Source of the DNA: Trypanosoma brucei
Lineage: Eukaryota
Length of the DNA: 64,000 bases
Assembly: GCA_000002445.1 (NCBI GenBank)
Contig: CP000070.1
Coordinates: 32,001 to 96,000, forward strand
Direction of reading: 5' to 3'
Position 1 is the first letter of the stretch. Each line of letters begins with the position of its first letter. A program made the position numbers and the translations under genes. Below the pieces are notes generated by a model. It saw only the letters and a list, made by a program, of their open reading frames with translations. It ran no database searches and had not been told where the DNA came from. This document shows positions 31,543 through 50,287 of the stretch, one piece after another.

Positions 31543-33971
31543 TATGGGGAAGCATAGAGGAGAATTGTTTCGATCCTCTCTTACAACAAATGTGGCAGGC
31601 AGTACATAACACCGATAGCATGGAAAACAAAACCATAGGCGTCACTCTATTTTCTCACCTTACCCCCTCCCCCCAATAACAGATGCGGCGTCAAGTGGTG
31701 AAAGTTGTCTTGCACAAACAACACAATATCGAGTAATTTGTAGCGCCTTTTTTTTTCTTGTTTAACTGTTAGTACGAGGAGAACATCATGATTGTTATTC
31801 CATTTTTTTCCTCGCGCGGCGTTGAAGGTGCTGAAAGTAAAAGTATGAAAACATTATCGAAATGAGTATAACCGCCAGGCATAGGAGCAACATCCCAAAC
31901 ACCTCAAAAATCACTACATGAGACTCCTTTTCCTTTGAAGCGCGCTCATTTCCATTAAATCCCGCATCGGTTACATTTGGAAATGAGGCCCCAACCAACA
32001 GAAAGTTATAAAATGCCAACATCCCAACACCTGTTGGTTGCGCACCGCAGCGCGAAATAGTAATTATACCAAAAATATGCTTACCTTTCCCCCCTTACGA
32101 TTCCTAATTTAAGAAACAATAATTCCCCCCTCCTCCAACCTGAGTGTGCTATTAATCAAATAAAAACAACAATAACAATAACATGAACATGAACACAATG
32201 GAGTTGGTGACTGGTTAAGTAACACTGAGCCGCGTTACAGCCAACTTCGAACATAACAATGTAACAAGAGGCGCCGTATGGAAAGTGCCGTTTGTTGTCT
32301 GAAATTACAGCCTAAGGATTGGCGCAGCACACATTACTCATATGATAATCTCACTTTTGCAATTCAGATATTGGGAAATGCAACCTTCCGCAAACCCCAT
32401 CATCACGCATTTCCATTTAAAAAGGGGTTTAAACCTGATAAAAAAAAAAAAAGAAAGCAAAGAGAAAATGTTATCCTCCTCCACCCCTGTTGTGTGGAGA
32501 CTAAAAAAGCGGACGTTACTGAAAAGCCATTGTTAGTTTCGTGACCAAACACGCATGATTAGAGAACCATTTACGCACCATTACGAACCGTCTCGCTTCA
32601 CCGTGCAACAATTAAAGCTGCAAAGATATGAAAAAAAAAAATGAGTTCCAGAATTGCATTGCCACGGCGACGCGATAATGCGATGAAAGATAAATGTCTA
32701 TAAAAAAAATATATGACCAAATCGGTATTAAAAATTTTAAAAACAGCGTACTTCATTACATAACATAACACTGCACTACAAAGCAACCCACCACCATAAT
32801 GGAGCGAATGCAAAAACACAATGCCCAGTGAAAAAAAAAACGCAAGTGGAAAGACATTCTACAACAGCGACCAAATCATGCATTAAACAAATTCCTTTCC
32901 CTCCAATAAAACTCACATTCGGTTAATTACACACCTGGCGCCCACAAGTCAAAATGTGCAATGCGCTAAAGATGTTGTGACTGCAGGATTGTACATCTCA
33001 AATAACATTCTCACAAGTATTGACTCTTCCGGCAGGTCTTCCAACTGAAGGTACGAATAATCAAACGCCGTCAACTCGCAACATTTAAAAGAAAATTATT
33101 TCTCTCCTTTCTTTCAGGGACTTTGAAATTGGAGGTTCTGCACAAATCCTCAATCCTCCGGCAGGTGTAAGCTCCACTTCATTTCAGTGGTCAGATACAT
33201 AACTAAATGAAAGTAAAGTATAACTAAACGACAGAGAGATTAAAGCAAAGGGGAAAACAAGTAACGACACTTACAAACAAGAAACAAGATAGTAAAATAA
33301 GTAAGTGGAAAGAAACTTAGGGAATCTAGAAGAAACATGCAGATGAAATAAAAAGAATATGGAGTCCCAAAACACATCACAACGATAAAAACTGAATACC
33401 CCATGACAATAAAAATGGAAACAATTGTGTGGAAGAAAACACTGACAAAATAAATAAAAATAAAATAACAATATCACTATTTGAAAAAAAAAAAGAATCA
33501 AGGGCAAAACGAGTCAGATAAAATAGCAGATGGGTATAGCCGCTATTTGAACACTTTCACAATAAATCCATCAACAAACGATGGGTAAGATGCGGTGTCT
33601 CAACAATGCAGCGTCTGCACACAGAAATCTCCAGTGTCATGTGCCCACCCGAATGTTTAAAGACGCCACACCAATAGGATAGCATTTAAAAAACAATAAT
33701 AACAGAAAAGATAAATATGTGGGAGACGTATGGTTTAAAAAAATGAGTAAAAAGACTTTTTTGTAGCACTGGTGCGGTACGTAAAAATTTAGTATACCAT
33801 TGAATTAAATAAGAATATAATAATGAAACGACCAGCGAAGAAAGCATAGGGGTGAGAAACGCCGTAAGTGGCCCCTCCCGTTGCAGTAGCGCCCTGTAAA
33901 CACGTGTTTAGCTAACGCCTAACTTCGACCTGTCGACACGGTAAGAGGATTAGGGAAACAGTTGACAGCTT

Positions 33972-35120
33972 TTAAAAATGTGCGGCAGCACTGTGAGAAA
34001 GTGCTGCAAGAAGGATCAGTAATGTGTATCCTCCTATAGATTCTGCATAGCTGCCGTCATTACCAACTTCTGCTTCCTCACCCTCATCGTCACCCAATTC
34101 CTGCACATGATCATCGTCAGAAATTTCCACTTTTCCTTCAGGATCCTTCTTCGGTACTTCCTCAACTTCCGTTCTTTCCGTCTTTTCCTTGTCCTCTGGA
34201 ACCTCCACGTTTCCTTCAGGATCCTTCTTCGGTACTTCCTCAACTTCCGTTCTTTCCGTCTTTTCCTTGTCCTCTGGAACCTCCACGTTTCCTTCAGGAT
34301 CCTTCTTCGGTACTTCCTCAACTTCCGTTCTTTCCGTCTTTTCCTTGTCCTCTGGAACCTCCACGTTTCCCTCAAATTCCTCCCTCGAAATCTCTTGAAC
34401 ATCCGCTTTTTCCGTCTCTGCCGTCCTTTCGGCTTCCTCAGCTGCCTTGTGTGCGTTGCTTTCAGCTGCCCTTGCTGCAACTCTTGCTTCGCTGGCACGC
34501 CGCACAGCAGCCTCTAATTGATCATATTCCGCCCTGAGATCAGCCATACCATCCGTCAAGATTTTGCAGATATCGCCAGTGAAGAACTCACACCCAAATT
34601 CCACAGCCTTTTTCAGCACCCAGGAGTTAACTCCTCTATTTGGGAGACTGCAGCCTCTCGCAATTCGTCTTGCAGTACTGGCGGCACTATTGTCCTCTGC
34701 AACACTTTTCAGATAATCATCAACCGGAGCGGTCTTTCCGGCTGCGAGCAGTGGGGCACGGGCCGCGTATTGCTCCACATCCGACAGGGCCGTCTTGGCG
34801 GCATTCTCCGCGCTCTCTGCTTCCTTTAGGGCAGCGCGAGCGCGTCCGACGGCCTCCTCCACCTTGGGAGTACTCGAAAAGGCATCCTCCGCTCGTCTCA
34901 CGGCATCTTGGCAACCTTCTCTCGCTTTAGAGGCATCCGAGACATTCGCTGCCGCCAACGCTTTGAGGGCCTTCACACCGAAGGGTATTCCATGCAGCGC
35001 TTCTGAAAAGAGACATGCCGCACTTACATGGCTCACTGTGTTTTGAGACCCTTCCTCAATTATGGAGTCGGCGGTGACATACGTAAGTATAGCAAGCAAG
35101 CACAAAAAACGGGCAGTCAT
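33972..35120 (-). CDS. Ala/Glu-rich predicted GPI-anchored surface protein, array copy 1 (382 aa, subtype A, three 26-aa repeats)
   Basis: N-terminal signal peptide MTARFLCLLAILTYVTADS. ~20% Ala, acidic. 5-6 conserved Cys. 3 x EGNVEVPEDKEKTERTEVEEVPKKDP. C-terminal GNDGSYAESIGGYTLLILLAALSHSAAAHF (small-residue omega region + hydrophobic tail = GPI signal). Possibly related to GARP/BARP-type alanine-rich trypanosome surface proteins; not verified. Confidence 0.8.
   Translation of the reverse strand: MTARFLCLLAILTYVTADSIIEEGSQNTVSHVSAACLFSEALHGIPFGVKALKALAAANVSDASKAREGCQDAVRRAEDAFSSTPKVEEAVGRARAALKEAESAENAAKTALSDVEQYAARAPLLAAGKTAPVDDYLKSVAEDNSAASTARRIARGCSLPNRGVNSWVLKKAVEFGCEFFTGDICKILTDGMADLRAEYDQLEAAVRRASEARVAARAAESNAHKAAEEAERTAETEKADVQEISREEFEGNVEVPEDKEKTERTEVEEVPKKDPEGNVEVPEDKEKTERTEVEEVPKKDPEGNVEVPEDKEKTERTEVEEVPKKDPEGKVEISDDDHVQELGDDEGEEAEVGNDGSYAESIGGYTLLILLAALSHSAAAHF
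34130..34365 (-). repeat. 78-bp in-frame tandem repeat (3 copies) inside surface gene copy 1
   Basis: ttccttcaggatccttcttcggtacttcctcaacttccgttctttccgtcttttccttgtcctctggaacctccacgt is repeated with period 78. Copy 2 has 2 copies (~37290-37445), copy 5 has 1, copies 3 and 4 have none. Confidence 0.85.
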
Positions 35121-35394
35121 GATTATCCCGAATTGCTGTAGTGGTAGTTGTTAAAATGAATGTTAAGTCTAAATGCAGGCAACAGTAGGAAAGAGTGGGT
35201 AAATGTTTGTATTAATAATTTCCCCCCTCGTGGAAAGCAGTTGTAACATGGGAGGAGGCATGGATGTTGTTCTTTTTGTGATTTTTAAAATTTTTTGTGT
35301 TCAATTTTCTGAGCATTGCTTTATTGGAAGAGATGACGGGACTTATTGCTTTTTCACAGTTGCCGTCGCTAACGGTAGTTGCGTTTCACTATGG

Positions 35395-36071
35395 TTATTC
35401 TTTCGACTGTCCCTGTTCAGCTATAAGTTCTCGAATGGCGATTGTGCTTCCAGATTTTATACTTGCAGTTTTTAATCGGGAGAGAACGCTTTCCAGTCGC
35501 TCGAAAGGATCATCACTAACTGCAGCCAGAATGCTTTTCAAATAACTCAAGTCGGTTACAAGTTGTTCTACTGCAAGGGCCGCAGCATCGTCGCTATTAA
35601 GTGGGAAACACATTGTAATGTTTTGTCAGGAAAGAACTGAAGAACGGCCTTTACAGCTTCCATCAGTCCATTCATAACTACTTGAAATCGATCATACTTC
35701 ATGATAGATTGCGAATCCTTTAAGAGGTCTTCCACGCGCTCTGCTTCTCGCCGTGCAAATGATTCCAGCACCTTAGGTTGCTCGAATATGTGTGCAAGCT
35801 CAGTTTGAGTATAAAAATTAATTTGCTCTGCAATATCGTCCCGCCTACACAAACTGTTTTTAACGTTTCTTCCGTCCTCAGCACCAACACATACCTTCGG
35901 AGGAGTAGAATCAATTTTAATACTAAGCTGCCTTACTGCCTCAAAGCAGGAAATAAGCTCAACATTCCTCTCCACACACTGCAAAATGGGAGTTAAGCAA
36001 GTGGAAAGACATTCTACAACAGCGATCAAATCATGCATTAAACAAACTCCTTTCCCTCCAATAAAACTCAC
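35395..36071 (-). pseudogene. Truncated 3' fragment of the 784-aa (COG7-like) gene with a ~630-bp internal deletion (array unit 1)
   Basis: ORFs 35568..36071 and 35395..35613 together reproduce the C-terminal region of the intact gene (…ECLSTCLTPILQCVERN… and …LAVEQLVTDLSYLKSILAAV…AEQGQSKE). They lack the 5' two-thirds. Deletion junction at taatg|ttttgtcagg. Confidence 0.85.
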
Positions 36072-37131
36072 ATTCGGTTAATTACACACCTGGCGCCCAC
36101 AAGTCAAAATGTGCAATGCGCTAAAGATGTTGTGACTGCAGGATTGTACATCTCAAATAATATTCTCACAAGTATTGACTCTTCCGGCAGGTCTTCCAAC
36201 TGAAGGTACGAATAATCAAACGCCGTCAACTCGCAACATTTAAAGGAAAATTATTTCTCTCCTTTCCTTCAGAGACTTTGAAATTGGAGGTTCTGCACAA
36301 ATCCTCAATCCTCCGGCAGGTGTAAGCTCCACTTCATTTCAGTGGTCAGATACATAACTAAATGAAAGTAAAGTATAACTAAACGACAGAGAGATTAAAG
36401 CAAAGGGGAAAACAAGCAACGACACTTACAAACAAGAAACAAGATAGTAAAATAAGTAAGTGGAAAGAAACTTAGGGAATCTAGAAGAAACATGCAGATG
36501 AAATAAAAAGAATATGGAGTCCCAAAACACATCGCAACGATAAAAACTGAATACCCCATGACAATAAAAATGGAAACAATTGTGTGGAGGGAAGGGTTAT
36601 AAAAGAAAAAAAATAATAATAATGTTATCGTCTTTTTTTATCAAAAAAAATAAATAAATAAAAATGAAGTGAAGCAGATAAAATAGCAGATGGGTATAGC
36701 CGCTATTTGAACACTTTCACAATAAATCCATCAACAAACGATGGGTAAGATGCGGTGTCTCGACAATGCAGCGTCTGCACACAGAAATCTACAGTGTCAT
36801 GCGCCCACCCGAATGTTTAAAGACGCCACACCAATAGGATAGCATTTAAAAAACAATAATAACAGAAAAGATAAATATGTGGGAGACGTATGGTTCAAAA
36901 AAATGAGTAAAAAGACTTTTTTGTAGCACTGGTGCGGTACGTAAAAATTTAGTATACCATTGAATTAAATAAGAATATAATAATGAAACGACCAGCGAAG
37001 AAAGCATAGGGGTGAGAAACGCCGTAAGTGGCCCCTCCCGTTGCAGTAGCGCCCTGTAAACACGTGTTTAGCTAACGCCTAACTTCGACCTGTCGACACG
37101 GTAAGAGGATTAGGGAAACAGTTGACAGCTT

Positions 37132-38202
37132 TTAAAAATGTGCGGCAGCACTGTGAAAAAGTGCTGCAAGAAGGATCAGTAATGTGTATCCTCCTATAGA
37201 TTCTGCATAGCTGCCGTCATTACCAACTTCTGCTTCCTCACCCTCATCGTCACCCAATTCCTGCACATGATCATCGTCAGAAATTTCCACTTTTCCCTCA
37301 GGATCCTTCTTCGGTACTTCCTCAACTTCCGTTCTTTCCGTCTTTTCCTTGTCCTCTGGAACCTCCACGTTTCCTTCAGGATCCTTCTTCGGCACTTCCT
37401 CAACTTCCGTTCTTCCCGTCTTTTCCTTGTCCTCTGGAACCTCCACGTTTCCCTCAAATTCCTCCCTCGAAATCTCTTGAACATCCGCTTCTTCCGTCTC
37501 TGCCGTCCTTTCGGCTTCCTCAGCTGCCTTGCGTGCGTTGCTTTCAGCTGCCCTTGCTGCAACTCTTGCTTCGCCGGCACGCCGCACAGCAGCCTCTAAT
37601 TGATCATATTCCGCCCTGAGATCAACCATACGCGTCCTCGCGATCCTACATATTTCACCCATGAAAATAGCACATGCGGATTCCACAGCCTGTGTCAGCA
37701 CCCAGGAGTTAACTCCTCTATTTGGGAGACTGCAGCCTCTCGCAATTCGTCTTGCAGTACTGGCGGCACTATTGTCCTCTGCAACACTTTTCAGATAATC
37801 ATCAATCGGAGCGGTCTTTCCGGCTGCGAGCAGTGGGGCACGGGCCGCGTATTGCTCCACATCCGACAGGGCCGTCTTGGCGGCATTCTCCGCGCTCTCT
37901 GCTTCCTTTAGGGCAGCGCGAGCGCGTCCGACGGCCTCCTCCGCTTTGGGATTATTCCAAGAGGCATCCTCCGCTCGTCTCACGGCATCTTGGCAACCTT
38001 CTCTCGCTTTAGAGGCATCCGAGACATTCGCTGCCGCCAACGCTTTGAGGGCCTTCACACCGAAGGGTATTCCATGCAGCGCTTCTGAAAAGAGACATGC
38101 CGCACTTACATGACTCACTGTGTTTTGAGACCCTTCCTCAATTATGGAGTCGGCGGTGACATACGTAAGTATAGCAAGCAAGCACAAAAAACGGGCAGTC
38201 AT
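37132..38202 (-). CDS. Ala/Glu-rich predicted GPI-anchored surface protein, array copy 2 (356 aa, subtype A, two 26-aa repeats)
   Basis: Same signal peptide and GPI signal as copy 1. Differs from copy 1 in the central segment (VLTQAVESACAIFMGEICRIARTRMVDL vs VLKKAVEFGCEFFTGDICKILTDGMADL). Confidence 0.8.
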   Translation of the reverse strand: MTARFLCLLAILTYVTADSIIEEGSQNTVSHVSAACLFSEALHGIPFGVKALKALAAANVSDASKAREGCQDAVRRAEDASWNNPKAEEAVGRARAALKEAESAENAAKTALSDVEQYAARAPLLAAGKTAPIDDYLKSVAEDNSAASTARRIARGCSLPNRGVNSWVLTQAVESACAIFMGEICRIARTRMVDLRAEYDQLEAAVRRAGEARVAARAAESNARKAAEEAERTAETEEADVQEISREEFEGNVEVPEDKEKTGRTEVEEVPKKDPEGNVEVPEDKEKTERTEVEEVPKKDPEGKVEISDDDHVQELGDDEGEEAEVGNDGSYAESIGGYTLLILLAALFHSAAAHF

Positions 38203-38476
38203 GATTATCCCGAGTTGCTGTAGTGGTAGTTGTTAAAATGAATGTTAAGTCTAAATGCAGGCAACAGTAGGAAAGAGTGGGTAAATGTTTGTATTAATAA
38301 TTTCCCCCCTCGTGGAAAGCAGTTGTAACATGGGAGGAGGCATGGATGTTGTTCTTTTTGTGATTTTTAAAATTTTTTGTGTTAAATTTTCTGAGCATTG
38401 CTTTATTGGAAGAGATGACGGGACTTATTGCTTTTTCACAGTTGCCGTCGCTAACGGTAGTTGCGTTTCACTATGG

Positions 38477-39775
38477 TTATTCTTTCGACTGTCCCTGTTC
38501 AGCTATAAGTTCTCGAATGGCGATTGTGCTTCCAGATTTTATACTTGCAGTTTTTAATCGGGAGAGAACGCTTTCCAGTCGCTCGAAAGGATCATCACTA
38601 ACTGCAGCCAGAATGCTTTTCAAATAACTCAAGTCGGTTACAAGTTGTTCTACTGCAAGGGCCGCAGCATCGTCGCTATTAAGTGGGAAACACATTATAA
38701 TGTTGGCCACTTTAGACTCAATAAAGTCCGATACCGCCGTGCGCACAATATCATCTAACCAATATTCCGTTACTTCTTCGAGTAACTCTTCAATGCCGTC
38801 GAACCGTCCCTCGCTGCCACCCCGTAATGATTCGAGTGCTAATGGTATTTCCACAATGGCTTCACCAAAGCCGCGCACCATTTCACTAGGCGCAAGATGT
38901 AATGGCGTGTGTAGCACAGAATTGGAAATCACAGCGCTTCCTCCGTTACTCGACTGTAACCTCCAGAGTGGTTGCGACTCATAACCGTCAGCTGTGGCAA
39001 TAACGGGAGCAATGACAGTTTGTTTTATAGCCTGCTGGCATTCAGCAGCACAAATCACCAGTACATTGTTTAGTGGCCGCCACAGCTGTTCACTTAGTTG
39101 ACTATTGATAGACTCAACCTCAGTTGGACGTAGTCGGCGCACCTCCGCAGATTTGACATAGTCTTCGCACATTTTCTGCGTAGACAGAAGCAATTGTTGA
39201 ACAATTTTGCGTAACGCTGAAAGGCGCTCTAACAACTCCGTCTGGTGCGTGTGAGGTGCGGGTTGAAAAAATGTCAGCGACTGGACGAGTGCCACCTTCC
39301 ATCGGCTCACACAGATCGGTAATGTTTTGTCAGGAAAGAACTGAAGAACGGCCTTTACAGCTTCCATCAGTCCATTCATAACTACTTGAAATCGATCATA
39401 CTTCATGATAGATTGCGAATCCTTTAAGAGGTCTTCCACGCGCTCTGCTTCTCGCCGTGCAAATGATTCCAGCACCTTAGGTTGCTCGAATATGTGTGCA
39501 AGCTCAGTTTGAGTATAAAAATTAATTTGCTCTGCAATATCGTCCCGCCTACACAAACTGTTTTTAACGTTTCTTCCGTCCTCAGCACCAACACATACCT
39601 TCGGAGGAGTAGAATCAATTTTAATACTAAGCTGCCTTACTGCCTCAAAGCAGGAAATAAGCTCAACATTCCTCTCCACACACTGCAAAATGGGAGTTAA
39701 GCAAGTGGAAAGACATTCTACAACAGCGACCAAATCATGCATTAAACAAATTCCTTTCCCTCCAATAAAACTCAC
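38477..39775 (-). pseudogene. Truncated 3' fragment (C-terminal 432 codons, undeleted) of the 784-aa gene (array unit 2)
   Basis: Translation is collinear and near-identical to residues ~353-784 of ORF 47933..50287. It begins abruptly at the unit junction. No upstream part of the gene is present. Confidence 0.85.
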
Positions 39776-40834
39776 ATTCGGTTAATTACACACCTGGCGC
39801 CCACAAGTCAAAATGTGCAATGCGCTAAAGATGTTGTGACTGCAGGATTGTACATCTCAAATAATATTCTCACAAGTATTGACTCTTCCGGCAGGTTTTC
39901 CAACTGAAGGTACGAATAATCAAACGCCGTCAACTCGCAACATTTAAAAGAAAATTATTTCTCTCCTTTCTTTCAGGGACTTTGAAATTGGAGGTTCTGC
40001 ACAAATCCTCAATCCTCCGGCAGGTGTAAGCTCCACTTCATTTCAGTGGTCAGATACATAACTAAATGAAAGTAAAGTATAACTAAACGACAGAGAGATT
40101 AAAGCAAAGGGGAAAACAAGCAACGACACTTACAAACAAGAAACAAGATAGTAAAATAAGTAAGTGGAAAGAAACTTAGGGAATCTAGAAGAAACATGCA
40201 GATGAAATAAAAAGAATATGGAGTCCCAAAACACATCGCAACGATAAAAACTGAATACCCCATGACAATAAAAATGGAAACAATTGTGTGGAGGGAAGGG
40301 TTATAAAAGAAAAAAAATAATAATAATGTTATCGTCTTTTTTTATCAAAAAAAATAAATAAATAAAAATGAAGTGAAGCAGATAAAATAGCAGATGGGTA
40401 TAGCCGCTATTTGAACACTTTCACAATAAATCCATCAACAAACGATGGGTAAGATGCGGTGTCTCAACAATGCAGCGTCTGCACACAGAAATCTCCAGTG
40501 TCATGTGCCCACCCGAATGTTTAAAGACGCCACACCAATAGGATAGCATTTAAAAAACAATAATAACAGAAAAGATAAATATGTGGGAGACGTATGGTTT
40601 AAAAAAATGAGTAAAAAGACTTTTTTGTAGCACTGGTGCGGTACGTAAAAATTTAGTATACCATTGAATTAAATAAGAATATAATAATGAAACGACCAGC
40701 GAAGAAAGCATAGGGGTGAGAAACGCCGTAAGTGGCCCCTCCCGTTGCAGTAGCGCCCTGTAACACGTGTTTAGCTAACGCCTAACTTCGACCTGTCGAC
40801 ACGGTAAGAGGATTAGGGAAACAGTTGACAGCTT

Positions 40835-41746
40835 TTAAAAATGTGCGGCAGCACTGTGAAAAAGTGCTGCAAGAAGGATCAGTAATGTGTATCCTCCTAT
40901 AGATTCTGCATAGCTGCCGTCATTACCAACTTCTGCTTCCTCACCCTCATCGTCACCCAATTCCTGCACATGATCATCGTCAGAAATTTCCACTTTTCCT
41001 TCAGGATCCTTCTTCGGCACTTCCTTAACTTTCGCTTTTTCCGTCTCTGCCGTCCTTTCGGCTTCCTCAGCTGCCTTGTGTGCGTTGCTTTCAGCTGCCC
41101 TTGCTGCAACTCTTGCTTCGCTGGCACGCCGCACAGCAGCCTCTAATTGATCATATTCCGCCCTGAGATCAGCCATACGCGCCCTCGCAGTGTTGCAGAT
41201 AACTGTCATGAAAACGGCACAACCGGATTCCACAGCCTGTGTCAGTACCCAGGAACTAACTTCAAGTGGGGCATTGCAGTCTCTCGCAATTCGTCTTGCA
41301 GTACTGGCGGCACTATTGTCCTCTGCAACACTTTTCAGATAATCATCAACCAGAGCTACATTGTTGTTCGCGAGCGCTGAGGCATTGGCAGCGTATTGCT
41401 CCACATCCGACAGGGCCGTCTTGGCGGCATTCTCCGCGCTCTCTGCTTCCTTTAGGGCAGCGCGAGCGCGTCCGACGGCCTCCTCCACCTTGGGAGTACT
41501 CGAAAAGGCATCCTCCGCTCGTCTCACGGCATCTTGGCAACCTTCTCTCGCTTTAGAGGCATCCGAGACATTCGCTGCCGCCGACGTCTTGAACACTTTG
41601 ACACTGTTGGGTACTCCATGCAGCGCTTCCGACATGAGACATGCCGCACTTACATGACTCACTGTGTCTTGAAACCCTTCCCCACCTTTGGGACCGGTGG
41701 TGACATACATAAGTATAGCAAGCAAGCACAAAAAACGGGCAGTCAT
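40835..41746 (-). CDS. Ala/Glu-rich predicted GPI-anchored surface protein, array copy 3 (303 aa, subtype B, no 26-aa repeat)
   Basis: Shares signal peptide, Cys positions, central Ala-rich helical region and GPI signal. Divergent N-terminal third (TTGPKGGEGFQDTVSHVSAACLMSEALHGVPNSVKVFKTSAAANV…ANASALANNNVALVDDY…). Confidence 0.8.
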   Translation of the reverse strand: MTARFLCLLAILMYVTTGPKGGEGFQDTVSHVSAACLMSEALHGVPNSVKVFKTSAAANVSDASKAREGCQDAVRRAEDAFSSTPKVEEAVGRARAALKEAESAENAAKTALSDVEQYAANASALANNNVALVDDYLKSVAEDNSAASTARRIARDCNAPLEVSSWVLTQAVESGCAVFMTVICNTARARMADLRAEYDQLEAAVRRASEARVAARAAESNAHKAAEEAERTAETEKAKVKEVPKKDPEGKVEISDDDHVQELGDDEGEEAEVGNDGSYAESIGGYTLLILLAALFHSAAAHF

Positions 41747-42020
41747 GATTATCCCGAATTGCTGTAGTGGTAGTTGTTAAAATGAATGTTAAGTCTAAAT
41801 GCAGGCAACAGTAGGAAAGAGTGGGTAAATGTTTGTATTAATAATTTCCCCCCTCGTGGAAAGCAGTTGTAACATGGGAGGAGGCATGGATGTTGTTCTT
41901 TTTGTGATTTTTAAAATTTTTTGTGTTCAATTTTCTGAGCATTGCTTTATTGGAAGAGATGACGGGACTTATTGCTTTTTCACAGTTGCCGTCGCTAACG
42001 GTAGTTGCGTTTCACTATGG

Positions 42021-42693
42021 TTATTCTTTCGACTGTCCCTGTTCAGCTATAAGTTCTCGAATGGCGATTGTGCTTCCAGATTTTATACTTGCACTTTTTA
42101 ATCGGGAGAGAACGCTTTCCAGTCGCTCGAAAGGATCATCACTAACTGCAGCCAGAATGCTTTTCAAATAACTCAAGTCGGTTACAAAATGACAGCGACT
42201 GGACGAGTGCCACCTTCCATCGGCTCACACAGATCGGTAATGTTTTGTCAGGAAAGAACTGAAGAACGGCCTTTACAGCTTCCATCAGTCCATTCATAAC
42301 TACTTGAAATCGATCATACTTCATGATAGATTGCGAATCCTTTAAGAGGTCTTCCACGCGCTCTGCTTCTCGCCGTGCAAATGATTTCAGCACCTTAGGT
42401 TGCTCGAATATGTGTGCAAGCTCAGTTTGAGTATAAAAATTAATTTGCTCTGCAATATCGTCCCGCCTACACAAACTGTTTTTAACGTTTCTTCCGTCCT
42501 CAGCACCAACACATACCTTCGGAGGAGTAGAATCAATTTTAATACTAAGCTGCCTTACTGCCTCAAAGCAGGAAATAAGCTCAACATTCCTCTCCACACA
42601 CTGCAAAATGGGAGTTAAGCAAGTGGAAAGACATTCTACAACAGCGACCAAATCATGCATTAAACAAATTCCTTTCCCTCCAATAAAACTCAC
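42021..42693 (-). pseudogene. Truncated 3' fragment of the 784-aa gene with a ~630-bp internal deletion and frameshift (array unit 3)
   Basis: ORF 42142..42693 matches the intact gene over …ECLSTCLTPILQ…KVALVQSL, then goes out of frame at the deletion junction gttacaa|aatgacagcgactgg. The extreme 3' end through the ancestral stop position (42021) is retained. Confidence 0.85.
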
Positions 42694-43753
42694 ATTCGGT
42701 TAATTACACACCTGGCGCCCACAAGTCAAAATGTGCAATGCGCTAAAGATGTTGTGACTGCAGGATTGTACATCTCAAATAATATTCTCACAAGTATTGA
42801 CTCTTCCGGCAGGTCTTCCAACTGAAGGTACGAATAATCAAACGCCGTCAACTCGCAACATTTAAAAGAAAATTATTTCTCTCCTTTCTTTCAGGGACTT
42901 TGAAATTGGAGGTTCTGCACAAATCCTCAATCCTCCGGCAGGTGTAAGCTCCACTTCATTTCAGTGGTCAGATACATAACTAAATGAAAGTAAAGTATAA
43001 CTAAACGACAGAGAGATTAAAGCAAAGGGGAAAACAAGCAACGACACTTACAAACAAGAAACAAGATAGTAAAATAAGTAAGTGGAAAGAAACTTAGGGA
43101 ATCTAGAAGAAACATGCAGATGAAATAAAAAGAATATGGAGTCCCAAAACACATCGCAACGATAAAAACTGAATACCCCATGACAATAAAAATGGAAACA
43201 ATTGTGTGGAGGGAAGGGTTATAAAAGAAAAAAAATAATAATAATGTTATCGTCTTTTTTTATCAAAAAAAATAAATAAATAAAAATGAAGTGAAGCAGA
43301 TAAAATAGCAGATGGGTATAGCCGCTATTTGAACACTTTCACAATAAATCCATCAACAAACGATGGGTAAGATGCGGTGTCTCAACAATGCAGCGTCTGC
43401 ACACAGAAATCTCCAGTGTCATGTGCCCACCCGAATGTTTAAAGACGCCACACCAATAGGATAGCATTTAAAAAACAATAATAACAGAAAAGATAAATAT
43501 GTGGGAGACGTATGGTTTAAAAAAATGAGTAAAAAGACTTTTTTGTAGCACTGGTGCGGTACGTAAAAATTTAGTATACCATTGAATTAAATAAGAATAT
43601 AATAATGAAACGACCAGCGAAGAAAGCATAGGGGTGAGAAACGCCGTAAGTGGCCCCTCCCGTTGCAGTAGCGCCCTGTAAACACGTGTTTAGCTAACGC
43701 CTAACTTCGACCTGTCGACACGGTAAGAGGATTAGGGAAACAGTTGACAGCTT

Positions 43754-44665
43754 TTAAAAATGTGCGGCAGCACTGTGAGAAAGTGCTGCAAGAAGGATCA
43801 GTAATGTGTATCCTCCTATAGATTCTGCATAGCTGCCGTCATTACCAACTTCTGCTTCCTCACCCTCATCGTCACCCAATTCCTGCACATGATCATCGTC
43901 AGAAATTTCCACTTTTCCTTCAGGATCCTTCTTCGGCACTTCCTTAACTTTCGCTTTTTCCGTCTCTGCCGTCCTTTCGGCTTCCTCAGCTGCCTTGTGT
44001 GCGTTGCTTTCAGCTGCCCTTGCTGCAACTCTTGCTTCGCTGGCACGCCGCACAGCAGCCTCTAATTGATCATATTCCGCCCTGAGATCAGCCATACGCG
44101 TCCTCGCAGTGTTGCAGATAACTGTCATGAAAACGGCACAACCGGATTCCACAGCCTGTGTCAGTACCCAGGAACTAACTTCAAGTGGGGCATTGCAGTC
44201 TCTCGCAATTCGTCTTGCAGTACTGGCGGCACTATTGTCCTCTGCAACACTTTTCAGATAATCATCAACCAGAGCTACATTGTTGTTCGCGAGCGCTGAG
44301 GCATTGGCAGCGTATTGCTCCACATCCGACAGGGCCGTCTTGGCGGCATTCTCCGCGCTCTCTGCTTCCTTTAGGGCAGCGCGAGCGCGTCCGACGGCCT
44401 CCTCCACCTTGGGAGTACTCGAAAAGGCATCCTCCGCTCGTCTCACGGCATCTTGGCAACCTTCTCTCGCTTTAGAGGCATCCAAGACATTCGCTGCCGC
44501 CGACGTCTTGAACACTTTGACACTGTTGGGTACTCCATGCAGCGCTTCCGACATGAGACATGCCGCACTTACATGACTCACTGTGTCTTGAAACCCTTCC
44601 CCACCTTTGGGACCGGTGGTGACATACGTAAGTATAGCAAGCAAGCACAAAAAACGGGCAGTCAT
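43754..44665 (-). CDS. Ala/Glu-rich predicted GPI-anchored surface protein, array copy 4 (303 aa, subtype B; 4 aa differences from copy 3)
   Basis: Near-identical to copy 3. Differences: ILT/ILM, NVL/NVS, ART/ARA, LSH/LFH. Confidence 0.8.
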   Translation of the reverse strand: MTARFLCLLAILTYVTTGPKGGEGFQDTVSHVSAACLMSEALHGVPNSVKVFKTSAAANVLDASKAREGCQDAVRRAEDAFSSTPKVEEAVGRARAALKEAESAENAAKTALSDVEQYAANASALANNNVALVDDYLKSVAEDNSAASTARRIARDCNAPLEVSSWVLTQAVESGCAVFMTVICNTARTRMADLRAEYDQLEAAVRRASEARVAARAAESNAHKAAEEAERTAETEKAKVKEVPKKDPEGKVEISDDDHVQELGDDEGEEAEVGNDGSYAESIGGYTLLILLAALSHSAAAHF

Positions 44666-44939
44666 GATTATCCCGAATTGCTGTAGTGGTAGTTGTTAAA
44701 ATGAATGTTAAGTCTAAATGCAGGCAACAGTAGGAAAGAGTGGGTAAATGTTTGTATTAATAATTTCCCCCCTCGTGGAAAGCAGTTGTAACATGGGAGG
44801 AGGCATGGATGTTGTTCTTTTTGTGATTTTTAAAATTTTTTGTGTTCAATTTTCTGAGCATTGCTTTATTGGAAGAGATGACGGGACTTATTGCTTTTTC
44901 ACAGTTGCCGTCGCTAACGGTAGTTGCGTTTCACTATGG

Positions 44940-45612
44940 TTATTCTTTCGACTGTCCCTGTTCAGCTATAAGTTCTCGAATGGCGATTGTGCTTCCAGAT
45001 TTTATACTTGCAGTTTTTAATCGGGAGAGAACGCTTTCCAGTCGCTCGAAAGGATCATCACTAACTGCAGCCAGAATGCTTTTCAAATAACTCAAGTCGG
45101 TTACAAAATGACAGCGACTGGACGAGTGCCACCTTCCATCGGCTCACACAGATCGGTAATGTTTTGTCAGGAAAGAACTGAAGAACGGCCTTTACAGCTT
45201 CCATCAGTCCATTCATAACTACTTGAAATCGATCATACTTCATGATAGATTGCGAATCCTTTAAGAGGTCTTCCACGCGCTCTGCTTCTCGCCGTGCAAA
45301 TGATTCCAGCACCTTAGGTTGCTCGAATATGTGTGCAAGCTCAGTTTGAGTATAAAAATTAATTTGCTCTGCAATATCGTCCCGCCTACACAAACTGTTT
45401 TTAACGTTTCTTCCGTCCTCAGCACCAACACATACCTTCGGAGGAGTAGAATCAATTTTAATACTAAGCTGCCTTACTGCCTCAAAGCAGGAAATAAGCT
45501 CAACATTCCTCTCCACACACTGCAAAATGGGAGTTAAGCAAGTGGAAAGACATTCTACAACAGCGACCAAATCATGCATTAAACAAATTCCTTTCCCTCC
45601 AATAAAACTCAC
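44940..45612 (-). pseudogene. Truncated 3' fragment of the 784-aa gene with the same ~630-bp deletion as unit 3 (array unit 4)
   Basis: Same junction gttacaa|aatgacagcgactgg as unit 3. ORF 45061..45612. Confidence 0.85.
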
Positions 45613-46665
45613 ATTCGGTTAATTACACACCTGGCGCCCACAAGTCAAAATGTGCAATGCGCTAAAGATGTTGTGACTGCAGGATTGTACATCTCAAATA
45701 ATATTCTCACAAGTATTGACTCTTCCGGCAGGTTTTCCAACTGAAGGTACGAATAATCAAACGCCGTCAACTCGCAACATTTAAAAGAAAATTATTTCTC
45801 TCCTTTCTTTCAGGGACTTTGAAATTGGAGGTTCTGCACAAATCCTCAATCCTCCGGCAGGTGTAAGCTCCACTTCATTTCAGTGGTCAGATACATAACT
45901 AAATGAAAGTAAAGTATAACTAAACGACAGAGAGATTAAAGCAAAGGGGAAAACAAGCAACGACACTTACAAACAAGAAACAAGATAGTAAAATAAGTAA
46001 GTGGAAAGAAACTTAGGGAATCTAGAAGAAACATGCAGATGAAATAAAAAGAATATGGAGTCCCAAAACACATCGCAACGATAAAAACTGAATACCCCAT
46101 GACAATAAAAATGGAAACAATTGTGTGGAAGAAAACACTGACAAAATAAATAAAAATAAAATAACAATATCACTATTTGAAAAAAAAAAGAATCAAGGGC
46201 AAAACGAGTCAGATAAAATAGCAGATGGGTATAGCCGCTATTTGAACACTTTCACAATAAATCCATCAACAAACGATGGGTAAGATGCGGTGTCTCGACA
46301 ATGCAGCGTCTGCACACAGAAATCTACAGTGTCATGCGCCCACCCGAATGTTTAAAGACGCCACACCAATAGGATAGCATTTAAAAAACAATAATAACAG
46401 AAAAGATAAATATGTGGGAGACGTATGGTTCAAAAAATGAGTAAAAAGACTTTTTTGTAGCACTGGTGCGGTACGTAAAAATTTAGTATACCATTGAATT
46501 AAATAAGAATATAATAATGAAACGACCAGCGAAGAAAGCATAGGGGTGAGAAACGCCGTAAGTGGCCCCTCCCGTTGCAGTAGCGCCCTGTAAACACGTG
46601 TTTAGCTAACGCCTAACTTCGACCTGTCGACACGGTAAGAGGATTAGGGAAACAGTTGACAGCTT

Positions 46666-47658
46666 TTAAAAATGTGCGGCAGCACTGTGAAAAAGTGCTG
46701 CAAGAAGGATCAGTAATGTGTATCCTCCTATAGATTCTGCATAGCTGCCGTCATTACCAACTTCTGCTTCCTCACCCTCATCGTCACCCAATTCCTGCAC
46801 ATGATCATCGTCAGAAATTTCCACTTTTCCTTCAGGATCCTTCTTCGGCACTTCCTCAACTTCCGTTCTTCCCGTCTTTTCCTTGTCCTCTGGAACCTCC
46901 ACGTTTCCCTCAAATTCCTCCCTCGAAATCTCTTGAACATCCGCTTCTTCCGTCTCTGCCGTCCTTTCGGCTTCCTCAGCTGCCTTGCGTGCGTTGCTTT
47001 CAGCTGCCCTTGCTGCAACTCTTGCTTCGCTGGCACGCCGCACAGCAGCCTCTAATTGATCATATTCCGCCCTGAGATCAACCATACGCGTCCTCGCGAT
47101 CCTACATATTTCACCCATGAAAATAGCACATGCGGATTCCACAGCCTGTGTCAGCACCCAGGAGTTAACTCCTCTATTTGGGAGACTGCAGCCTCTCGCA
47201 ATTCGTCTTGCAGTACTGGCGGCACTATTGTCCTCTGCAACACTTTTCAGATAATCATCAATCGGAGCGGTCTTTCCGGCTGCGAGCAGTGGGGCACGGG
47301 CCGCGTATTGCTCCACATCCGACAGGGCCGTCTTGGCGGCATTCTCCGCGCTCTCTGCTTCCTTTAGGGCAGCGCGAGCGCGTCCGACGGCCTCCTCCAC
47401 CTTGGGAGTACTCGAAAAGGCATCCTCCGCTCGTCTCACGGCATCTTGGCAACCTTCTCTCGCTTTAGAGGCATCCGAGACATTCGCTGCCGCCGACGCT
47501 TTGAGGGCCTTCACACCGAAGGGTATTCCATGCAGCGCTTCTGAAAAGAGACATGCCGCACTTACATGACTCACTGTGTTTTGAGACCCTTCCTCAATTA
47601 TGGAGTCGGCGGTGACATACGTAAGTATAGCAAGCAAGCACAAAAAACGGGCAGTCAT
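46666..47658 (-). CDS. Ala/Glu-rich predicted GPI-anchored surface protein, array copy 5 (330 aa, subtype A, one 26-aa repeat). Sits immediately downstream of the intact 784-aa gene.
   Basis: Same signal peptide and GPI signal. Essentially copy 2 with one fewer 78-bp repeat. Confidence 0.8.
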   Translation of the reverse strand: MTARFLCLLAILTYVTADSIIEEGSQNTVSHVSAACLFSEALHGIPFGVKALKASAAANVSDASKAREGCQDAVRRAEDAFSSTPKVEEAVGRARAALKEAESAENAAKTALSDVEQYAARAPLLAAGKTAPIDDYLKSVAEDNSAASTARRIARGCSLPNRGVNSWVLTQAVESACAIFMGEICRIARTRMVDLRAEYDQLEAAVRRASEARVAARAAESNARKAAEEAERTAETEEADVQEISREEFEGNVEVPEDKEKTGRTEVEEVPKKDPEGKVEISDDDHVQELGDDEGEEAEVGNDGSYAESIGGYTLLILLAALFHSAAAHF

Positions 47659-47932
47659 GATTATCCCGAATTGCTGTAGTGGTAGTTGTTAAAATGAATG
47701 TTAAGTCTAAATGCAGGCAACAGTAGGAAAGAGTGGGTAAATGTTTGTATTAATAATTTCCCCCCTCGTGGAAAGCAGTTGTAACATGGGAGGAGGCATG
47801 GATGTTGTTCTTTTTGTGATTTTTAAAATTTTTTGTGTTCAATTTTCTGAGCATTGCTTTATTGGAAGAGATGACGGGACTTATTGCTTTTTCACAGTTG
47901 CCGTCGCTAACGGTAGTTGCGTTTCACTATGG

Positions 47933-50287
47933 TTATTCTTTCGACTGTCCCTGTTCAGCTATAAGTTCTCGAATGGCGATTGTGCTTCCAGATTTTATAC
48001 TTGCAGTTTTTAATCGGGAGAGAACGCTTTCCAGTCGCTCGAAAGGATCATCACTAACTGCAGCCAGAATGCTTTTCAAATAACTCAAGTCGGTTACAAG
48101 TTGTTCTACTGCAAGGGCCGCAGCATCGTCGCTATTAAGTGGGAAACACATTATAATGTTGGCCACTTTAGACTCAATAAAGTCCGATACCGCCGTGCGC
48201 ACAATATCATCTAACCAATATTCCGTTACTTCTTCGAGTAACTCTTCAATGCCGTCGAACCGTCCCTCGCTGCCACCCCGTAATGATTCGAGTGCTAATG
48301 GTATTTCCACAATGGCTTCACCAAAGCCGCGCACCATTTCACTAGGCGCAAGATGTAATGGCGTGTGTAGCACAGAATTGGAAATCACAGCGCTTCCTCC
48401 GTTACTCGACTGTAACCTCCAGAGTGGTTGCGACTCATAACCGTCAGCTGTGGCAATAACGGGAGCAATGACAGTTTGTTTTATAGCCTGCTGGCATTCA
48501 GCAGCACAAATCACCAGTACATTGTTTAGTGGCCGCCACAGCTGTTCACTTAGTTGACTATTGATAGACTCAACCTCAGTTGGACGTAGTCGGCGCACCT
48601 CCGCAGATTTGACATAGTCTTCGCACATTTTCTGCGTAGACAGAAGCAATTGTTGAACAATTTTGCGTAACGCTGAAAGGCGCTCTAACAACTCCGTCTG
48701 GTGCGTGTGAGGTGCGGGTTGAAAAAATGTCAGCGACTGGACGAGTGCCACCTTCCATCGGCTCACACAGATCGGTAATGTTTTGTCAGGAAAGAACTGA
48801 AGAACGGCCTTTACAGCTTCCATCAGTCCATTCATAACTACTTGAAATCGATCATACTTCATGATAGATTGCGAATCCTTTAAGAGGTCTTCCACGCGCT
48901 CTGCTTCTCGCCGTGCAAATGATTCCAGCACCTTAGGTTGCTCGAATATGTGTGCAAGCTCAGTTTGAGTATAAAAATTAATTTGCTCTGCAATATCGTC
49001 CCGCCTACACAAACTGTTTTTAACGTTTCTTCCGTCCTCAGCACCAACACATACCTTCGGAGGAGTAGAATCAATTTTAATACTAAGCTGCCTTACTGCC
49101 TCAAAGCAGGAAATAAGCTCAGGATTCCTCTCCACACACTGCAAAATGGGAGTTAAGCAAGTGGAAAGACATTCTACAATTTCATCTGCCATTAAACGCA
49201 AAACTTTCACGGGTTGCGACTCGGGCCCTTCAGAAATCTCCGCATTATCCGTGATATCGCGATTACCGCTGTAAACATGTGCCAACTGCATTAAATAGTC
49301 TAACTGGTCGGTGAGTGCACATCCTAAGGAAGGTATAAGTTGCGTTTTCAGCACCTCTGCCGCACGCACGGGAGAAATTGGATGCCTTGAAACTTTTGAC
49401 TCAGAGTGATGTAGCAGACAAAACACTTTTTCCTTTTCGGAGGCTATGCTCTCTGCGGAAAATTGCTGAAGAACAGCATCAGCCCTCCCAATAGTATCAA
49501 GTACCTTGAGGAGATGAGCAGCACGGTCTACTACTCTTCGGCGTAACTGTTCCATACATTCGGTCTCCACCACGCGTTGCAGGAGTTGTTCATGCCTCTC
49601 AACTGCTTCCAGCTGCTTTCCACCAAACGTTACCTCTAATTTCTGAAGGTCTGCGAGGTTTTGCCGCACCTCCCTAATAGACACCGCCACTAAGTCTATG
49701 TCCACCTCTGACACCGAAACACGAAGTTTCTCCATAATATCGTCCAATTGCTTCATATTGCTATCAACTTCCGATGCCTTCTTAAGTGTTTCAGAGCAGC
49801 GCATGAGCTTCTTCTGCGTTTTCTTCAGATCATTGAGCTGTGCAACGTATGGTTTGGAGATCATTTCTACCGCTGGTTGCGCCTCCTCTCTTATTTTGCA
49901 AAGTGCCTGTTGAAGTTGTTGAACTTCCGTAACCATACGGCCGACTTCCAGCCCAGTTCGGGGGAGCCGAACGAGCGCCTGTGTGATAGTGTCGTCAACA
50001 GAACTTGCAACCTCCTGTGAGTATGAATGCAATCTGCCGTACAAATTTGTGATGCGCCCTTCCAACTCCGCATCGGTTTCTACCCCATCAGGATTCGCCG
50101 AAGAAATACATTGCAAAGAGGTATTTATCCACTGAATAACGTCAAAGTTCTCACTTGCTAATTCATCTAACGAGAACGCGAACGACGCGGGATCAGTGGA
50201 AGGTGAAGTACCAATCGAAGGGTTTGGATTTGGTACGTCCTGCATTTTTGGGCTTAAAGAAGAAGGAAAGTTAAGGCAGCAGTGCAC
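47933..50287 (-). CDS. Intact 784-aa helical protein, tentatively conserved oligomeric Golgi complex subunit 7 (COG7)-like. Source of the fragments in the array.
   Basis: The N-terminal ENFDVIQWINTSL followed by a long coiled-coil-like region resembles the COG7 N-terminus (FDVKEWINAAF…). Length is similar to COG7 (~770 aa). The assignment is from motif recall only. Confidence 0.4.
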   Translation of the reverse strand: MHCCLNFPSSLSPKMQDVPNPNPSIGTSPSTDPASFAFSLDELASENFDVIQWINTSLQCISSANPDGVETDAELEGRITNLYGRLHSYSQEVASSVDDTITQALVRLPRTGLEVGRMVTEVQQLQQALCKIREEAQPAVEMISKPYVAQLNDLKKTQKKLMRCSETLKKASEVDSNMKQLDDIMEKLRVSVSEVDIDLVAVSIREVRQNLADLQKLEVTFGGKQLEAVERHEQLLQRVVETECMEQLRRRVVDRAAHLLKVLDTIGRADAVLQQFSAESIASEKEKVFCLLHHSESKVSRHPISPVRAAEVLKTQLIPSLGCALTDQLDYLMQLAHVYSGNRDITDNAEISEGPESQPVKVLRLMADEIVECLSTCLTPILQCVERNPELISCFEAVRQLSIKIDSTPPKVCVGAEDGRNVKNSLCRRDDIAEQINFYTQTELAHIFEQPKVLESFARREAERVEDLLKDSQSIMKYDRFQVVMNGLMEAVKAVLQFFPDKTLPICVSRWKVALVQSLTFFQPAPHTHQTELLERLSALRKIVQQLLLSTQKMCEDYVKSAEVRRLRPTEVESINSQLSEQLWRPLNNVLVICAAECQQAIKQTVIAPVIATADGYESQPLWRLQSSNGGSAVISNSVLHTPLHLAPSEMVRGFGEAIVEIPLALESLRGGSEGRFDGIEELLEEVTEYWLDDIVRTAVSDFIESKVANIIMCFPLNSDDAAALAVEQLVTDLSYLKSILAAVSDDPFERLESVLSRLKTASIKSGSTIAIRELIAEQGQSKE

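What the first reader, a model, noticed from the sequence alone, without database searches (positions are those of the whole stretch)
35395..49180. Every array unit carries a truncated 3' piece of the neighbouring 784-aa gene: a fossil of the duplication mechanism
The unit junction (gtggaaagacattctacaa|cagcgaccaaatc…) fuses interior sequence of the intact gene 47933..50287 (at 49161-49179) to a point ~1.1 kb downstream of a surface gene. Each duplication therefore copied [3' ~1.25 kb of the upstream gene + spacer + surface gene + downstream spacer]. Only unit 2 keeps the full 432-codon fragment. Units 3 and 4 share an identical ~630-bp internal deletion (gttacaa|aatgacagcgactgg). Unit 1 has an independent, slightly offset deletion at a taatg microhomology. 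These nested events order the history: an original duplication, a deletion, then re-duplication of the deleted unit (units 3 and 4 are 2915 and 2921 bp and nearly identical). The retained gene 3' ends may still supply processing signals (polyadenylation/trans-splicing context) for the downstream surface genes.
Basis: seen in the sequence. Interest (0 to 1): 0.7.

Follow-up and report, generated by a model that had tools for sequence, protein, structure and literature searches.

The report
COG7 gene fragments inside MISP array
Each repeat of the Trypanosoma brucei MISP surface-gene array carries a dead 3' piece of the neighbouring Golgi gene COG7, an ordinary scar of tandem duplication that published work has listed as 'unrelated hypothetical genes'.

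Summary
The window is T. b. brucei TREU927 chromosome 7, and all genes discussed lie on the minus strand. The 784-codon gene (47933-50287) is COG7. The five surface genes are the MISP/Fam50 genes Tb927.7.360-440.

Four copies of the last 1247 nt of COG7 (99.5-99.8% identical) sit between them. All four share one junction, at 49179|49180. One copy is complete. Two share a 626-bp deletion. One has an independent 622-bp deletion at a TAATGTT microhomology.

These ORFs are the annotated 'hypothetical' genes Tb927.7.370/390/410/430.

New points:
- A 23-bp piece of the junction also closes the far end of the array, so a 23-bp direct repeat brackets every unit.
- The junction, the terminal 23-mer and the 626-bp deletion recur in T. 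b. gambiense and T. b. equiperdum records, so they predate those lineages.
- T. congolense has COG7 followed by a single Fam50 gene.

Units are mosaics, and the 'intact' fragment unit is the one most like the COG7-MISP440 unit.

The processing signals lie in the 274-bp intergenic spacer, not in the coding fragment.

This is an ordinary duplication relic of modest interest.

The parts
47933..50287 (-). Intact COG7 gene (Tb927.7.450; annotated 770 aa from an internal ATG)
   Evidence: Pfam COG7 PF10191, E 9e-19. Colinear 750-780-aa orthologues occur in 8 other Trypanosoma species. The ORF ends with the exact sequence of AAZ12110.1.
49157..49179 (-). 23-nt element r (GCAAGTGGAAAGACATTCTACAA on + strand) inside COG7. 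It is the 5' limit of the duplicated segment.
46666..47658 (-). MISP440 (330 aa, A-type)
   Evidence: Pfam GARP PF16731, E 1.9e-54. Locus described in PMC10089363.
47659..47932 (-). 274-bp spacer U, made of the COG7 3'UTR plus the MISP splice-acceptor region. It is copied in every unit: 35121-35394, 38203-38476, 41747-42020 and 44666-44939.
   Evidence: Poly(A) site for Tb927.7.390 at window 38369, from Kolev 2010 Table S13.
44940..45560 (-). COG7 3' fragment u4 (Tb927.7.430) with the 626-bp frameshifting deletion
43754..44665 (-). MISP420 (303 aa, B-type)
42021..42641 (-). COG7 3' fragment u3 (Tb927.7.410) with the same 626-bp deletion
40835..41746 (-). MISP400 (303 aa, B-type)
38477..39723 (-). 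COG7 3' fragment u2 (Tb927.7.390). All 1247 nt are present, with 2 adjacent mismatches to the parent.
37132..38202 (-). MISP380 (356 aa, A-type, closest to MISP440)
35395..36019 (-). COG7 3' fragment u1 (Tb927.7.370) with an independent 622-bp deletion at a TAATGTT microhomology
   Evidence: The same deletion type occurs in a Logan contig of run ERR034315.
33972..35120 (-). MISP360 (382 aa, three 26-aa repeats)
45561..46665 (-). About 1.1-kb downstream spacer D with a T-rich middle part. It is repeated at 42642-43753, 39724-40834, 36020-37131 and 32865-33971.
32842..32864 (-). Terminal copy of the 23-nt element r. It is followed by unique flank, not by COG7 sequence.
   Evidence: No further homology to COG7. 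The same structure occurs in T. b. gambiense and T. b. equiperdum.

Best explanation
The array is a head-to-tail segmental duplication. One breakpoint fell inside COG7 and the other about 1.1 kb downstream of the single ancestral MISP gene. The ancestral order was COG7 - MISP - flank, as still seen in T. congolense.

One event joined COG7 position 49179|49180 to the end of spacer D. This made a 3.6-kb unit consisting of [last 1247 nt of COG7, 274-bp spacer, MISP, 1.1-kb spacer].

Inferred: later unequal crossing-over and gene conversion between these long, near-identical units did four things. They changed copy number, spread a 626-bp-deleted fragment, produced a second deletion, and kept all non-MISP parts about 99-100% alike.

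The fragments are by-products, that is, pseudogene pieces with no COG7 N-terminal half. They are transcribed within the polycistron and use COG7's own poly(A) region. Only one poly(A) site is actually mapped.

Inferred: the part that matters for MISP expression is the spacer, which gives each MISP copy its native splice-acceptor context. The fragments' main effect is to supply homology for further recombination.
For: - One identical junction occurs in all four fragments, with 99.5-99.8% identity to the parent.
- There are n+1 copies of a 23-nt element for n units.
- The same junction, terminal 23-mer and 626-bp deletion occur in the T. b. gambiense DAL972 and T. b. equiperdum records.
- In T. 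congolense IL3000, COG7 is directly followed by one GARP-family gene.
- Incompatible site partitions and segment-wise distances show exchange between units.
- Three of the four fragments are frameshifted.
- The COG7 Pfam match lies in residues 42-280, which are absent from the fragments, and the fragments have no Pfam hit of their own.
- A poly(A) site lies 108 nt after the u2 stop codon.
- The window ORFs equal the TREU927 proteins AAZ12102-12110.
Against: - The origin of the terminal 23-mer is unresolved. A perfect 23-nt match is far too long to be a chance pre-existing microhomology, and no extended homology surrounds it.
- The fragments keep open reading frames with an in-frame ATG, and u2 could encode 421 aa. 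Expression of a protein is therefore not excluded.
- No spliced-leader data for the fragments could be retrieved.
- Copy numbers in the gambiense and equiperdum records may be distorted by repeat collapse.
Confidence: 0.85

Rival explanations
1. The full-length fragment u2 is the surviving original copy. Deletions then arose, and the deleted unit was re-duplicated, so the array order records the history.
For: A full-length fragment must have existed originally. u1 retains sequence that u3/u4 lack and vice versa, so both deletions started from a full-length copy. u3 and u4 units are nearly identical.
Against: The u2-MISP380 unit is the closest relative of the COG7-MISP440 unit from the fragment through the proximal spacer, and it switches haplotype at 46209-46297. 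That is the pattern expected from a long conversion tract or unequal exchange with the intact gene. Unit partitions are mutually incompatible. Gambiense and equiperdum show only the 626-bp-deleted type.
Confidence: 0.35
2. The fragments are functional. Either they are expressed as truncated COG7 C-terminal proteins, or they are required cis-acting UTR sequence for the neighbouring MISP mRNAs.
For: There is an in-frame ATG and ORFs of 156-421 aa. Polyadenylation is mapped after u2 in procyclic forms. Both independent deletions are internal and spare both ends of the fragment. A T-rich tract with AG dinucleotides in spacer D could drive separate trans-splicing.
Against: Three of four copies are frameshifted by deletions of different extent. 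Near-identity to the parent is explained by concerted evolution and gives no signal of separate selection. In trypanosomes, poly(A) site choice follows the downstream splice-acceptor tract (established knowledge), which lies in the spacer and not in the coding fragment.
Confidence: 0.1
3. The repeat structure, or the intact COG7 gene, is an assembly artefact.
For: Arrays of near-identical 3-kb units are prone to mis-assembly. The equiperdum draft has very little long-read data.
Against: The same junction and deletion types occur in three independent assemblies and in a Logan short-read contig spanning spacer-junction-u1 deletion. Intact colinear COG7 exists in gambiense and 8 other species. 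Units carry private substitutions.
Confidence: 0.03

Closest known systems
T. brucei tandem gene arrays evolving in concert (Jackson 2007, PMC1855330; Fam50 arrays in Jackson 2013, PMC3605285)
   Same: Head-to-tail duplicates lie in a polycistron. Gene copies are chimaeric through partial gene conversion. Paralogues within a genome are as similar as orthologues between T. brucei subspecies.
   Different: Those accounts treat the repeated genes. They do not describe a truncated piece of a single-copy flanking gene carried in every unit. The array was not found by the terms searched in PMC1855330.
MISP locus as published (Casas-Sanchez et al. 2023, PMC10089363)
   Same: The same five genes, the same A/B subfamilies, the same 26-residue C-terminal repeats and the same >99.7% conserved intergenic sequence.
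   Different: The paper calls Tb927.7.370/390/410/430 'unrelated genes encoding hypothetical proteins'. It does not mention COG7, pseudogenes or duplication. UniProt's automatic names do call them COG7.
Human RCCX module (C4 - CYP21 - TNX, with truncated STK19P and TNXA copies); from my own knowledge, not tested here
   Same: A tandem module was duplicated with breakpoints inside flanking genes, so each extra module carries truncated gene pieces. One piece has an internal deletion. Unequal exchange can move that deletion into the functional parent gene.
   Different: The organism and genes differ. Here the transfer into the parent gene is seen only in one low-quality T. b. equiperdum record.
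Tandem duplication between short direct repeats / microhomology-mediated tandem duplication; general knowledge
   Same: There are n+1 copies of a short element for n units, with sharp boundaries on both sides.
   Different: 23 perfect nucleotides is too long for chance microhomology. The terminal copy could equally be the stump of a deleted extra unit, or a short over-run of a repair tract.

Membership tests
Relic gene fragment of a tandem segmental duplication | Fragment is homologous to, and colinear with, part of the adjacent single-copy gene | tested here: met
   1247 nt at 99.8% identity, same strand and order
Relic gene fragment of a tandem segmental duplication | The same novel junction occurs in every unit (single founding event) | tested here: met
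   Identical junction at 36019|20, 39723|24, 42641|42 and 45560|61. Also present in gambiense and equiperdum.
Relic gene fragment of a tandem segmental duplication | The outgroup has the unduplicated arrangement | tested here: met
   The T. congolense contig has COG7 then one GARP-family gene, with no COG7 fragment in the 1055 bp after it. The contig ends there.
Relic gene fragment of a tandem segmental duplication | Signs of decay or lack of constraint in the fragments | tested here: met
   Two independent frameshifting deletions in 3 of 4 copies
Processed (retrotransposed) pseudogene | Copy starts at the mRNA 5' end or ends in a poly(A) tract, lacks intergenic DNA, and lies at a dispersed location | tested here: not met
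   The fragment is contiguous with the genomic intergenic spacer and the next gene, and sits in tandem
COG7 (Pfam PF10191) functional paralogue | Contains the conserved N-terminal COG7 region | tested here: not met
   The Pfam match of the parent is at residues 42-280. Fragments start at about residue 370 and have no Pfam hit.
MISP / Fam50 (Pfam GARP PF16731) for the surface genes | GARP-domain match and identity with the published MISP genes | tested here: met
   E 1.9e-54 and 1.1e-44. The 382-aa product with Asp18 and Phe382 matches the published MISP360.
Array generated by recombination between pre-existing direct repeats | The repeat is present at the distal site before duplication | not testable with these tools
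   This needs a close outgroup with a single-copy locus. T. congolense non-coding DNA is too diverged, and only the derived state is seen in all three T. brucei-group records.

The most novel reading that the evidence does not exclude
The fragments are not inert. They act as recombination partners of their parent gene.

In the T. b. equiperdum chromosome 7 record, the COG7 5' half is fused to a 626-bp-deleted fragment-type 3' end, giving a 521-aa product. No undeleted 3' end exists in that array. This is the expected product of an unequal exchange that also removed the first MISP unit.

If real, a surface-gene array has truncated a conserved Golgi-tethering subunit in a tsetse-independent lineage. 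The two independent frameshifting deletions in the fragments might then reflect selection against a 421-aa C-terminal COG7 piece.
Probability: 0.2. Interest if true: 0.5.

Novelty: new member of a known kind. Interest (0 to 1): 0.3.

Why it matters
- It corrects the description of four annotated T. brucei 'hypothetical conserved' genes (Tb927.7.370/390/410/430), which are pieces of COG7 (Tb927.7.450).
- It gives the exact breakpoints of the event that founded the MISP array.
- Because the interspersed ORFs are duplicated COG7 sequence, short reads, RNAi fragments, CRISPR guides or peptides assigned to COG7's C-terminal half will cross-map to the array, and the reverse also holds.
- It explains why all MISP copies share the same upstream processing context.
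- The long, near-identical fragments are a ready substrate for copy-number change. They are possibly also a substrate for damage to COG7 itself.
- Beyond that, this is a textbook consequence of tandem duplication.

Tried and rejected
- I looked for extended homology between the unique distal flank and COG7 beyond the 23-mer, and between the end of spacer D and COG7 upstream of the junction. Local and end-anchored alignments scored no better than shuffles. An apparent 8-mer/12-mer resemblance was therefore dropped.
- I tried to polarise the Pro/Val difference at 49122-3 between the parent and the fragments. Outgroups have Ala/Gln/Glu, and gambiense COG7 itself has the fragment variant, so the site is uninformative.
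- I tested whether the divergent patch in spacer D is an inversion. It is not. It is an A/T-rich low-complexity stretch with two haplotypes.
- I searched for spliced-leader or poly(A) data on the fragments. Nilsson 2010 supplements had no hits. No Siegel 2010 supplements are held. The large Kolev 2010 tables were cut when stored, so only one poly(A) entry was recovered.
- I searched for literature naming the fragments. Only the MISP paper and its preprint name them. The other hits listed were not opened, and word-start matching also picks up longer gene ids. A 2026 T. brucei pangenome preprint does not mention MISP or COG7.
- The run ERR034315 could not be identified.
- A retroposition origin was rejected (see membership test).
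Full report
**Identity of the locus.** All genes from about 26 kb to 64 kb of the window lie on the minus strand.
- The 784-codon ORF at 47933-50287 matches Pfam COG7 (PF10191, E 9e-19, residues 42-280).
- The ORF at 50554-52329 is a prenyltransferase.
- The five ORFs of 303-382 aa match Pfam GARP (PF16731, E 1e-45 to 1e-54).
- The window ORFs end with the exact GenBank proteins AAZ12102, 12104, 12106, 12108 and 12110 of T. b. brucei TREU927.
- The surface genes are therefore the MISP genes Tb927.7.360/380/400/420/440 described in PMC10089363. The interspersed ORFs are Tb927.7.370/390/410/430.
- A poly(A) coordinate published for Tb927.7.390 places the window at chr7:32001-96000.

**Check of the observation.** blastn of the intact gene against the window gives four further copies of its 3' part.

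| Copy | Window coordinates | Parent nt retained (+ strand, counted from 47933) |
|---|---|---|
| u2 | 38477-39723 | 1-1247, 2 mismatches |
| u1 | 35395-36019 | 1-228 and 843-1247 |
| u3 | 42021-42641 | 1-167 and 785-1247 |
| u4 | 44940-45560 | 1-167 and 785-1247 |

- All four end at the same base. This corresponds to 49179|49180 in the parent, and all continue into the same spacer sequence.
- The u3/u4 deletion removes 48100-48725 (626 bp), with only an AA-type microhomology and one adjacent T>A change.
- The u1 deletion removes about 48153-48774 (622 bp) at a 7-nt TAATGTT microhomology.
- Both deletions shift the frame.

**Anatomy of the unit (gene sense).** Each unit consists of:
- the COG7 3' 1247 nt;
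- a 274-bp spacer U;
- MISP (about 0.9-1.15 kb);
- a spacer D of 1105-1112 bp.

They also occur once more after the last spacer D, at 32842-32864, followed by unique flank. Five units are therefore bracketed by six copies of a sharply bounded 23-mer. Alignment against shuffled controls shows no further homology on either side.

**Other genomes.** A search with COG7 and its 90% cluster led to three loci.
- *T. b. gambiense DAL972 (L002).* The order is intact COG7 (770 aa), MISP, one fragment with the 626-bp deletion, MISP-B, spacer D, the 23-mer, then the same flank.
- *T. b. equiperdum record CM010678.1 (L001/L003).* It has five MISP genes and four fragments, all of the 626-bp-deleted type, plus the terminal 23-mer.
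- *Logan contig of run ERR034315 (L005).* It spans spacer D, the junction and a u1-type deletion at 99.0% identity.

The junction, the terminal 23-mer and both deletion types are therefore not private to one assembly. The first three features predate the split of these lineages.

In T. congolense IL3000 (L006), COG7 is followed directly by one GARP-family gene (E 1.4e-34; 35% identity to MISP360). No COG7 fragment occurs in the remaining 1055 bp. COG7-then-Fam50 is therefore the ancestral single-copy order. In T. theileri, COG7 ends a directional cluster and no Fam50 gene follows.

**History.**
- Non-MISP parts of all twelve units from the three genomes differ by only 0-9 sites per 400-560 nt. 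Paralogues are as alike as orthologues.
- The MISP N-terminal coding part differs by 70-80 of 719 sites between A and B types.
- Within TREU927, informative sites support three splits:
  - {400,420} at 58 sites in MISP coding sequence;
  - {360,440} at 30 sites in an A/T-rich patch of D (46130-46209);
  - {380,440} at 13 sites (46297-47262).
- The last two splits are incompatible on any tree, so units have exchanged segments.
- The u2-MISP380 unit matches the COG7-MISP440 unit from the fragment through proximal D. There are 2 private changes in fragment end plus U, 8 in the MISP N-terminal part and 0 in proximal D. It then switches haplotype.
- This is what a long conversion tract or unequal exchange with the intact gene would produce. 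The 'complete' fragment may therefore be a re-copy rather than a survivor.
- It could still be a survivor, because a full-length fragment must have existed for both deletions to arise.
- The two-base difference between parent and fragments (Pro versus Val, 49122-3) does not polarise anything. Gambiense COG7 has the fragment variant and outgroups differ.

**Mechanism.**
- *Shown:* one founding junction, tandem head-to-tail units, a flanking 23-nt repeat, exchange between units, and different unit numbers among records.
- *Inferred:* unequal crossing-over or conversion is the engine.
- *Open:* the origin of the terminal 23-mer. There are three possibilities:
  - a pre-existing repeat, which is implausible by chance;
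  - the stump of a deleted extra unit;
  - a repair tract that ran 23 nt past spacer D and was then end-joined.

**Processing signals.**
- Kolev et al. 2010 Table S13 lists a predominant poly(A) site for Tb927.7.390 at chr7:70369, giving a 108-nt 3'UTR with dispersion 0.64. This corresponds to window position 38369, inside spacer U.
- Spacer U carries pyrimidine-rich stretches followed by AG just upstream of the MISP ATG. Spacer D has a long T-rich middle section.
- In trypanosomes, upstream polyadenylation is coupled to the downstream splice acceptor (established knowledge). The relevant signals therefore lie in U.
- Two independent deletions show that about half of the coding fragment is dispensable.
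- The data I could reach do not settle whether the fragments are separate mRNAs or MISP 3'UTR.

**What is known.**
- The MISP paper calls the interspersed ORFs 'unrelated genes encoding hypothetical proteins'. It does not mention COG7, pseudogenes or duplication.
- The tandem-array survey and the cell-surface phylome do not describe the fragments.
- Among the papers found by the identifier search, only the MISP paper and its preprint list these ORFs. The remaining hits were not opened.
- UniProt's automatic names already label them COG7.
- The C-terminal part has no Pfam model hit of its own. This probably explains the 'hypothetical' label.
- Truncated flanking-gene pieces in tandem modules are a well-known kind of relic. 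The human RCCX module is a close analogue (my own knowledge).

**A lead to treat with caution.**
- In the T. b. equiperdum record, the COG7 5' half carries the parent-type Pro variant. It is joined to a 626-bp-deleted 3' end, giving the 521-aa product RHW71609.1. That product ends in the same frameshifted tail as the fragments.
- This is the reciprocal outcome expected from exchange between parent and fragment.
- The published IVM-t1 draft was built from MiSeq reads plus only 7,508 PacBio reads, with reference-guided chromosomes. I could not confirm that the record is that draft, so mis-assembly is a real possibility.
- A T. equiperdum OVI contig (L004) does contain the undeleted region.

**Verdict.** This is a real, precisely mapped, but ordinary scar of tandem duplication. 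It offers a useful annotation correction and a modestly interesting record of array dynamics.

Noticed in passing
L003:2941-4506 (T. b. equiperdum CM010678.1); corresponds to window 47933-50287: The COG7 gene of this record carries the fragment-type 626-bp deletion, giving a 521-aa product (RHW71609.1). The array holds no undeleted 3' end. This is either a parent/fragment exchange that truncated COG7 or a repeat mis-assembly in a low-coverage draft.
   Followed up: partly
L003:7030-7045 (first fragment of the equiperdum array): Three clustered substitutions at fragment positions 38, 41 and 44 change ttttGcaGtgTg to ttttTcaCtgGg. This is the same 12-mer that follows the terminal 23-mer in the unique flank (window about 32825-32836, minus strand). 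It could be a short templated patch or coincidence.
   Followed up: partly
window 46130-46209 and the equivalent stretch in each spacer D (about 450-540 nt downstream of each MISP stop codon): An A/T-rich patch of about 100 nt exists in two haplotypes differing at about 33 positions. One type lies after MISP440 and MISP360, the other after MISP380, 400 and 420. Both types also occur in gambiense and equiperdum. It is not an inversion.
   Followed up: yes
window 49122-49123: TREU927 and equiperdum COG7 have CC (Pro, minus strand). All fragments, and also gambiense COG7, have GT (Val). The site varies between species.
   Followed up: yes
window 34036-34569, 37274-37651, 46730-47107: 78-bp tandem repeats (26-aa units) in the MISP C-terminal region, in 0-3 copies per gene, account for the length differences. 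The out-of-frame 154-aa ORF at 34034-34498 is a by-product of these repeats.
   Followed up: partly
window about 23600-25550: Plus-strand ORFs end and minus-strand ORFs begin here, which looks like a convergent strand-switch region. Cumulative GC skew turns at about 26 kb. ARAGORN finds no tRNA gene anywhere in the window.
   Followed up: no
L007:8001-10331 (T. theileri): COG7 is the last gene of its directional cluster and is followed by convergent genes. No Fam50 gene is present, so the COG7-Fam50 adjacency seems limited to the T. brucei/T. congolense side.
   Followed up: no
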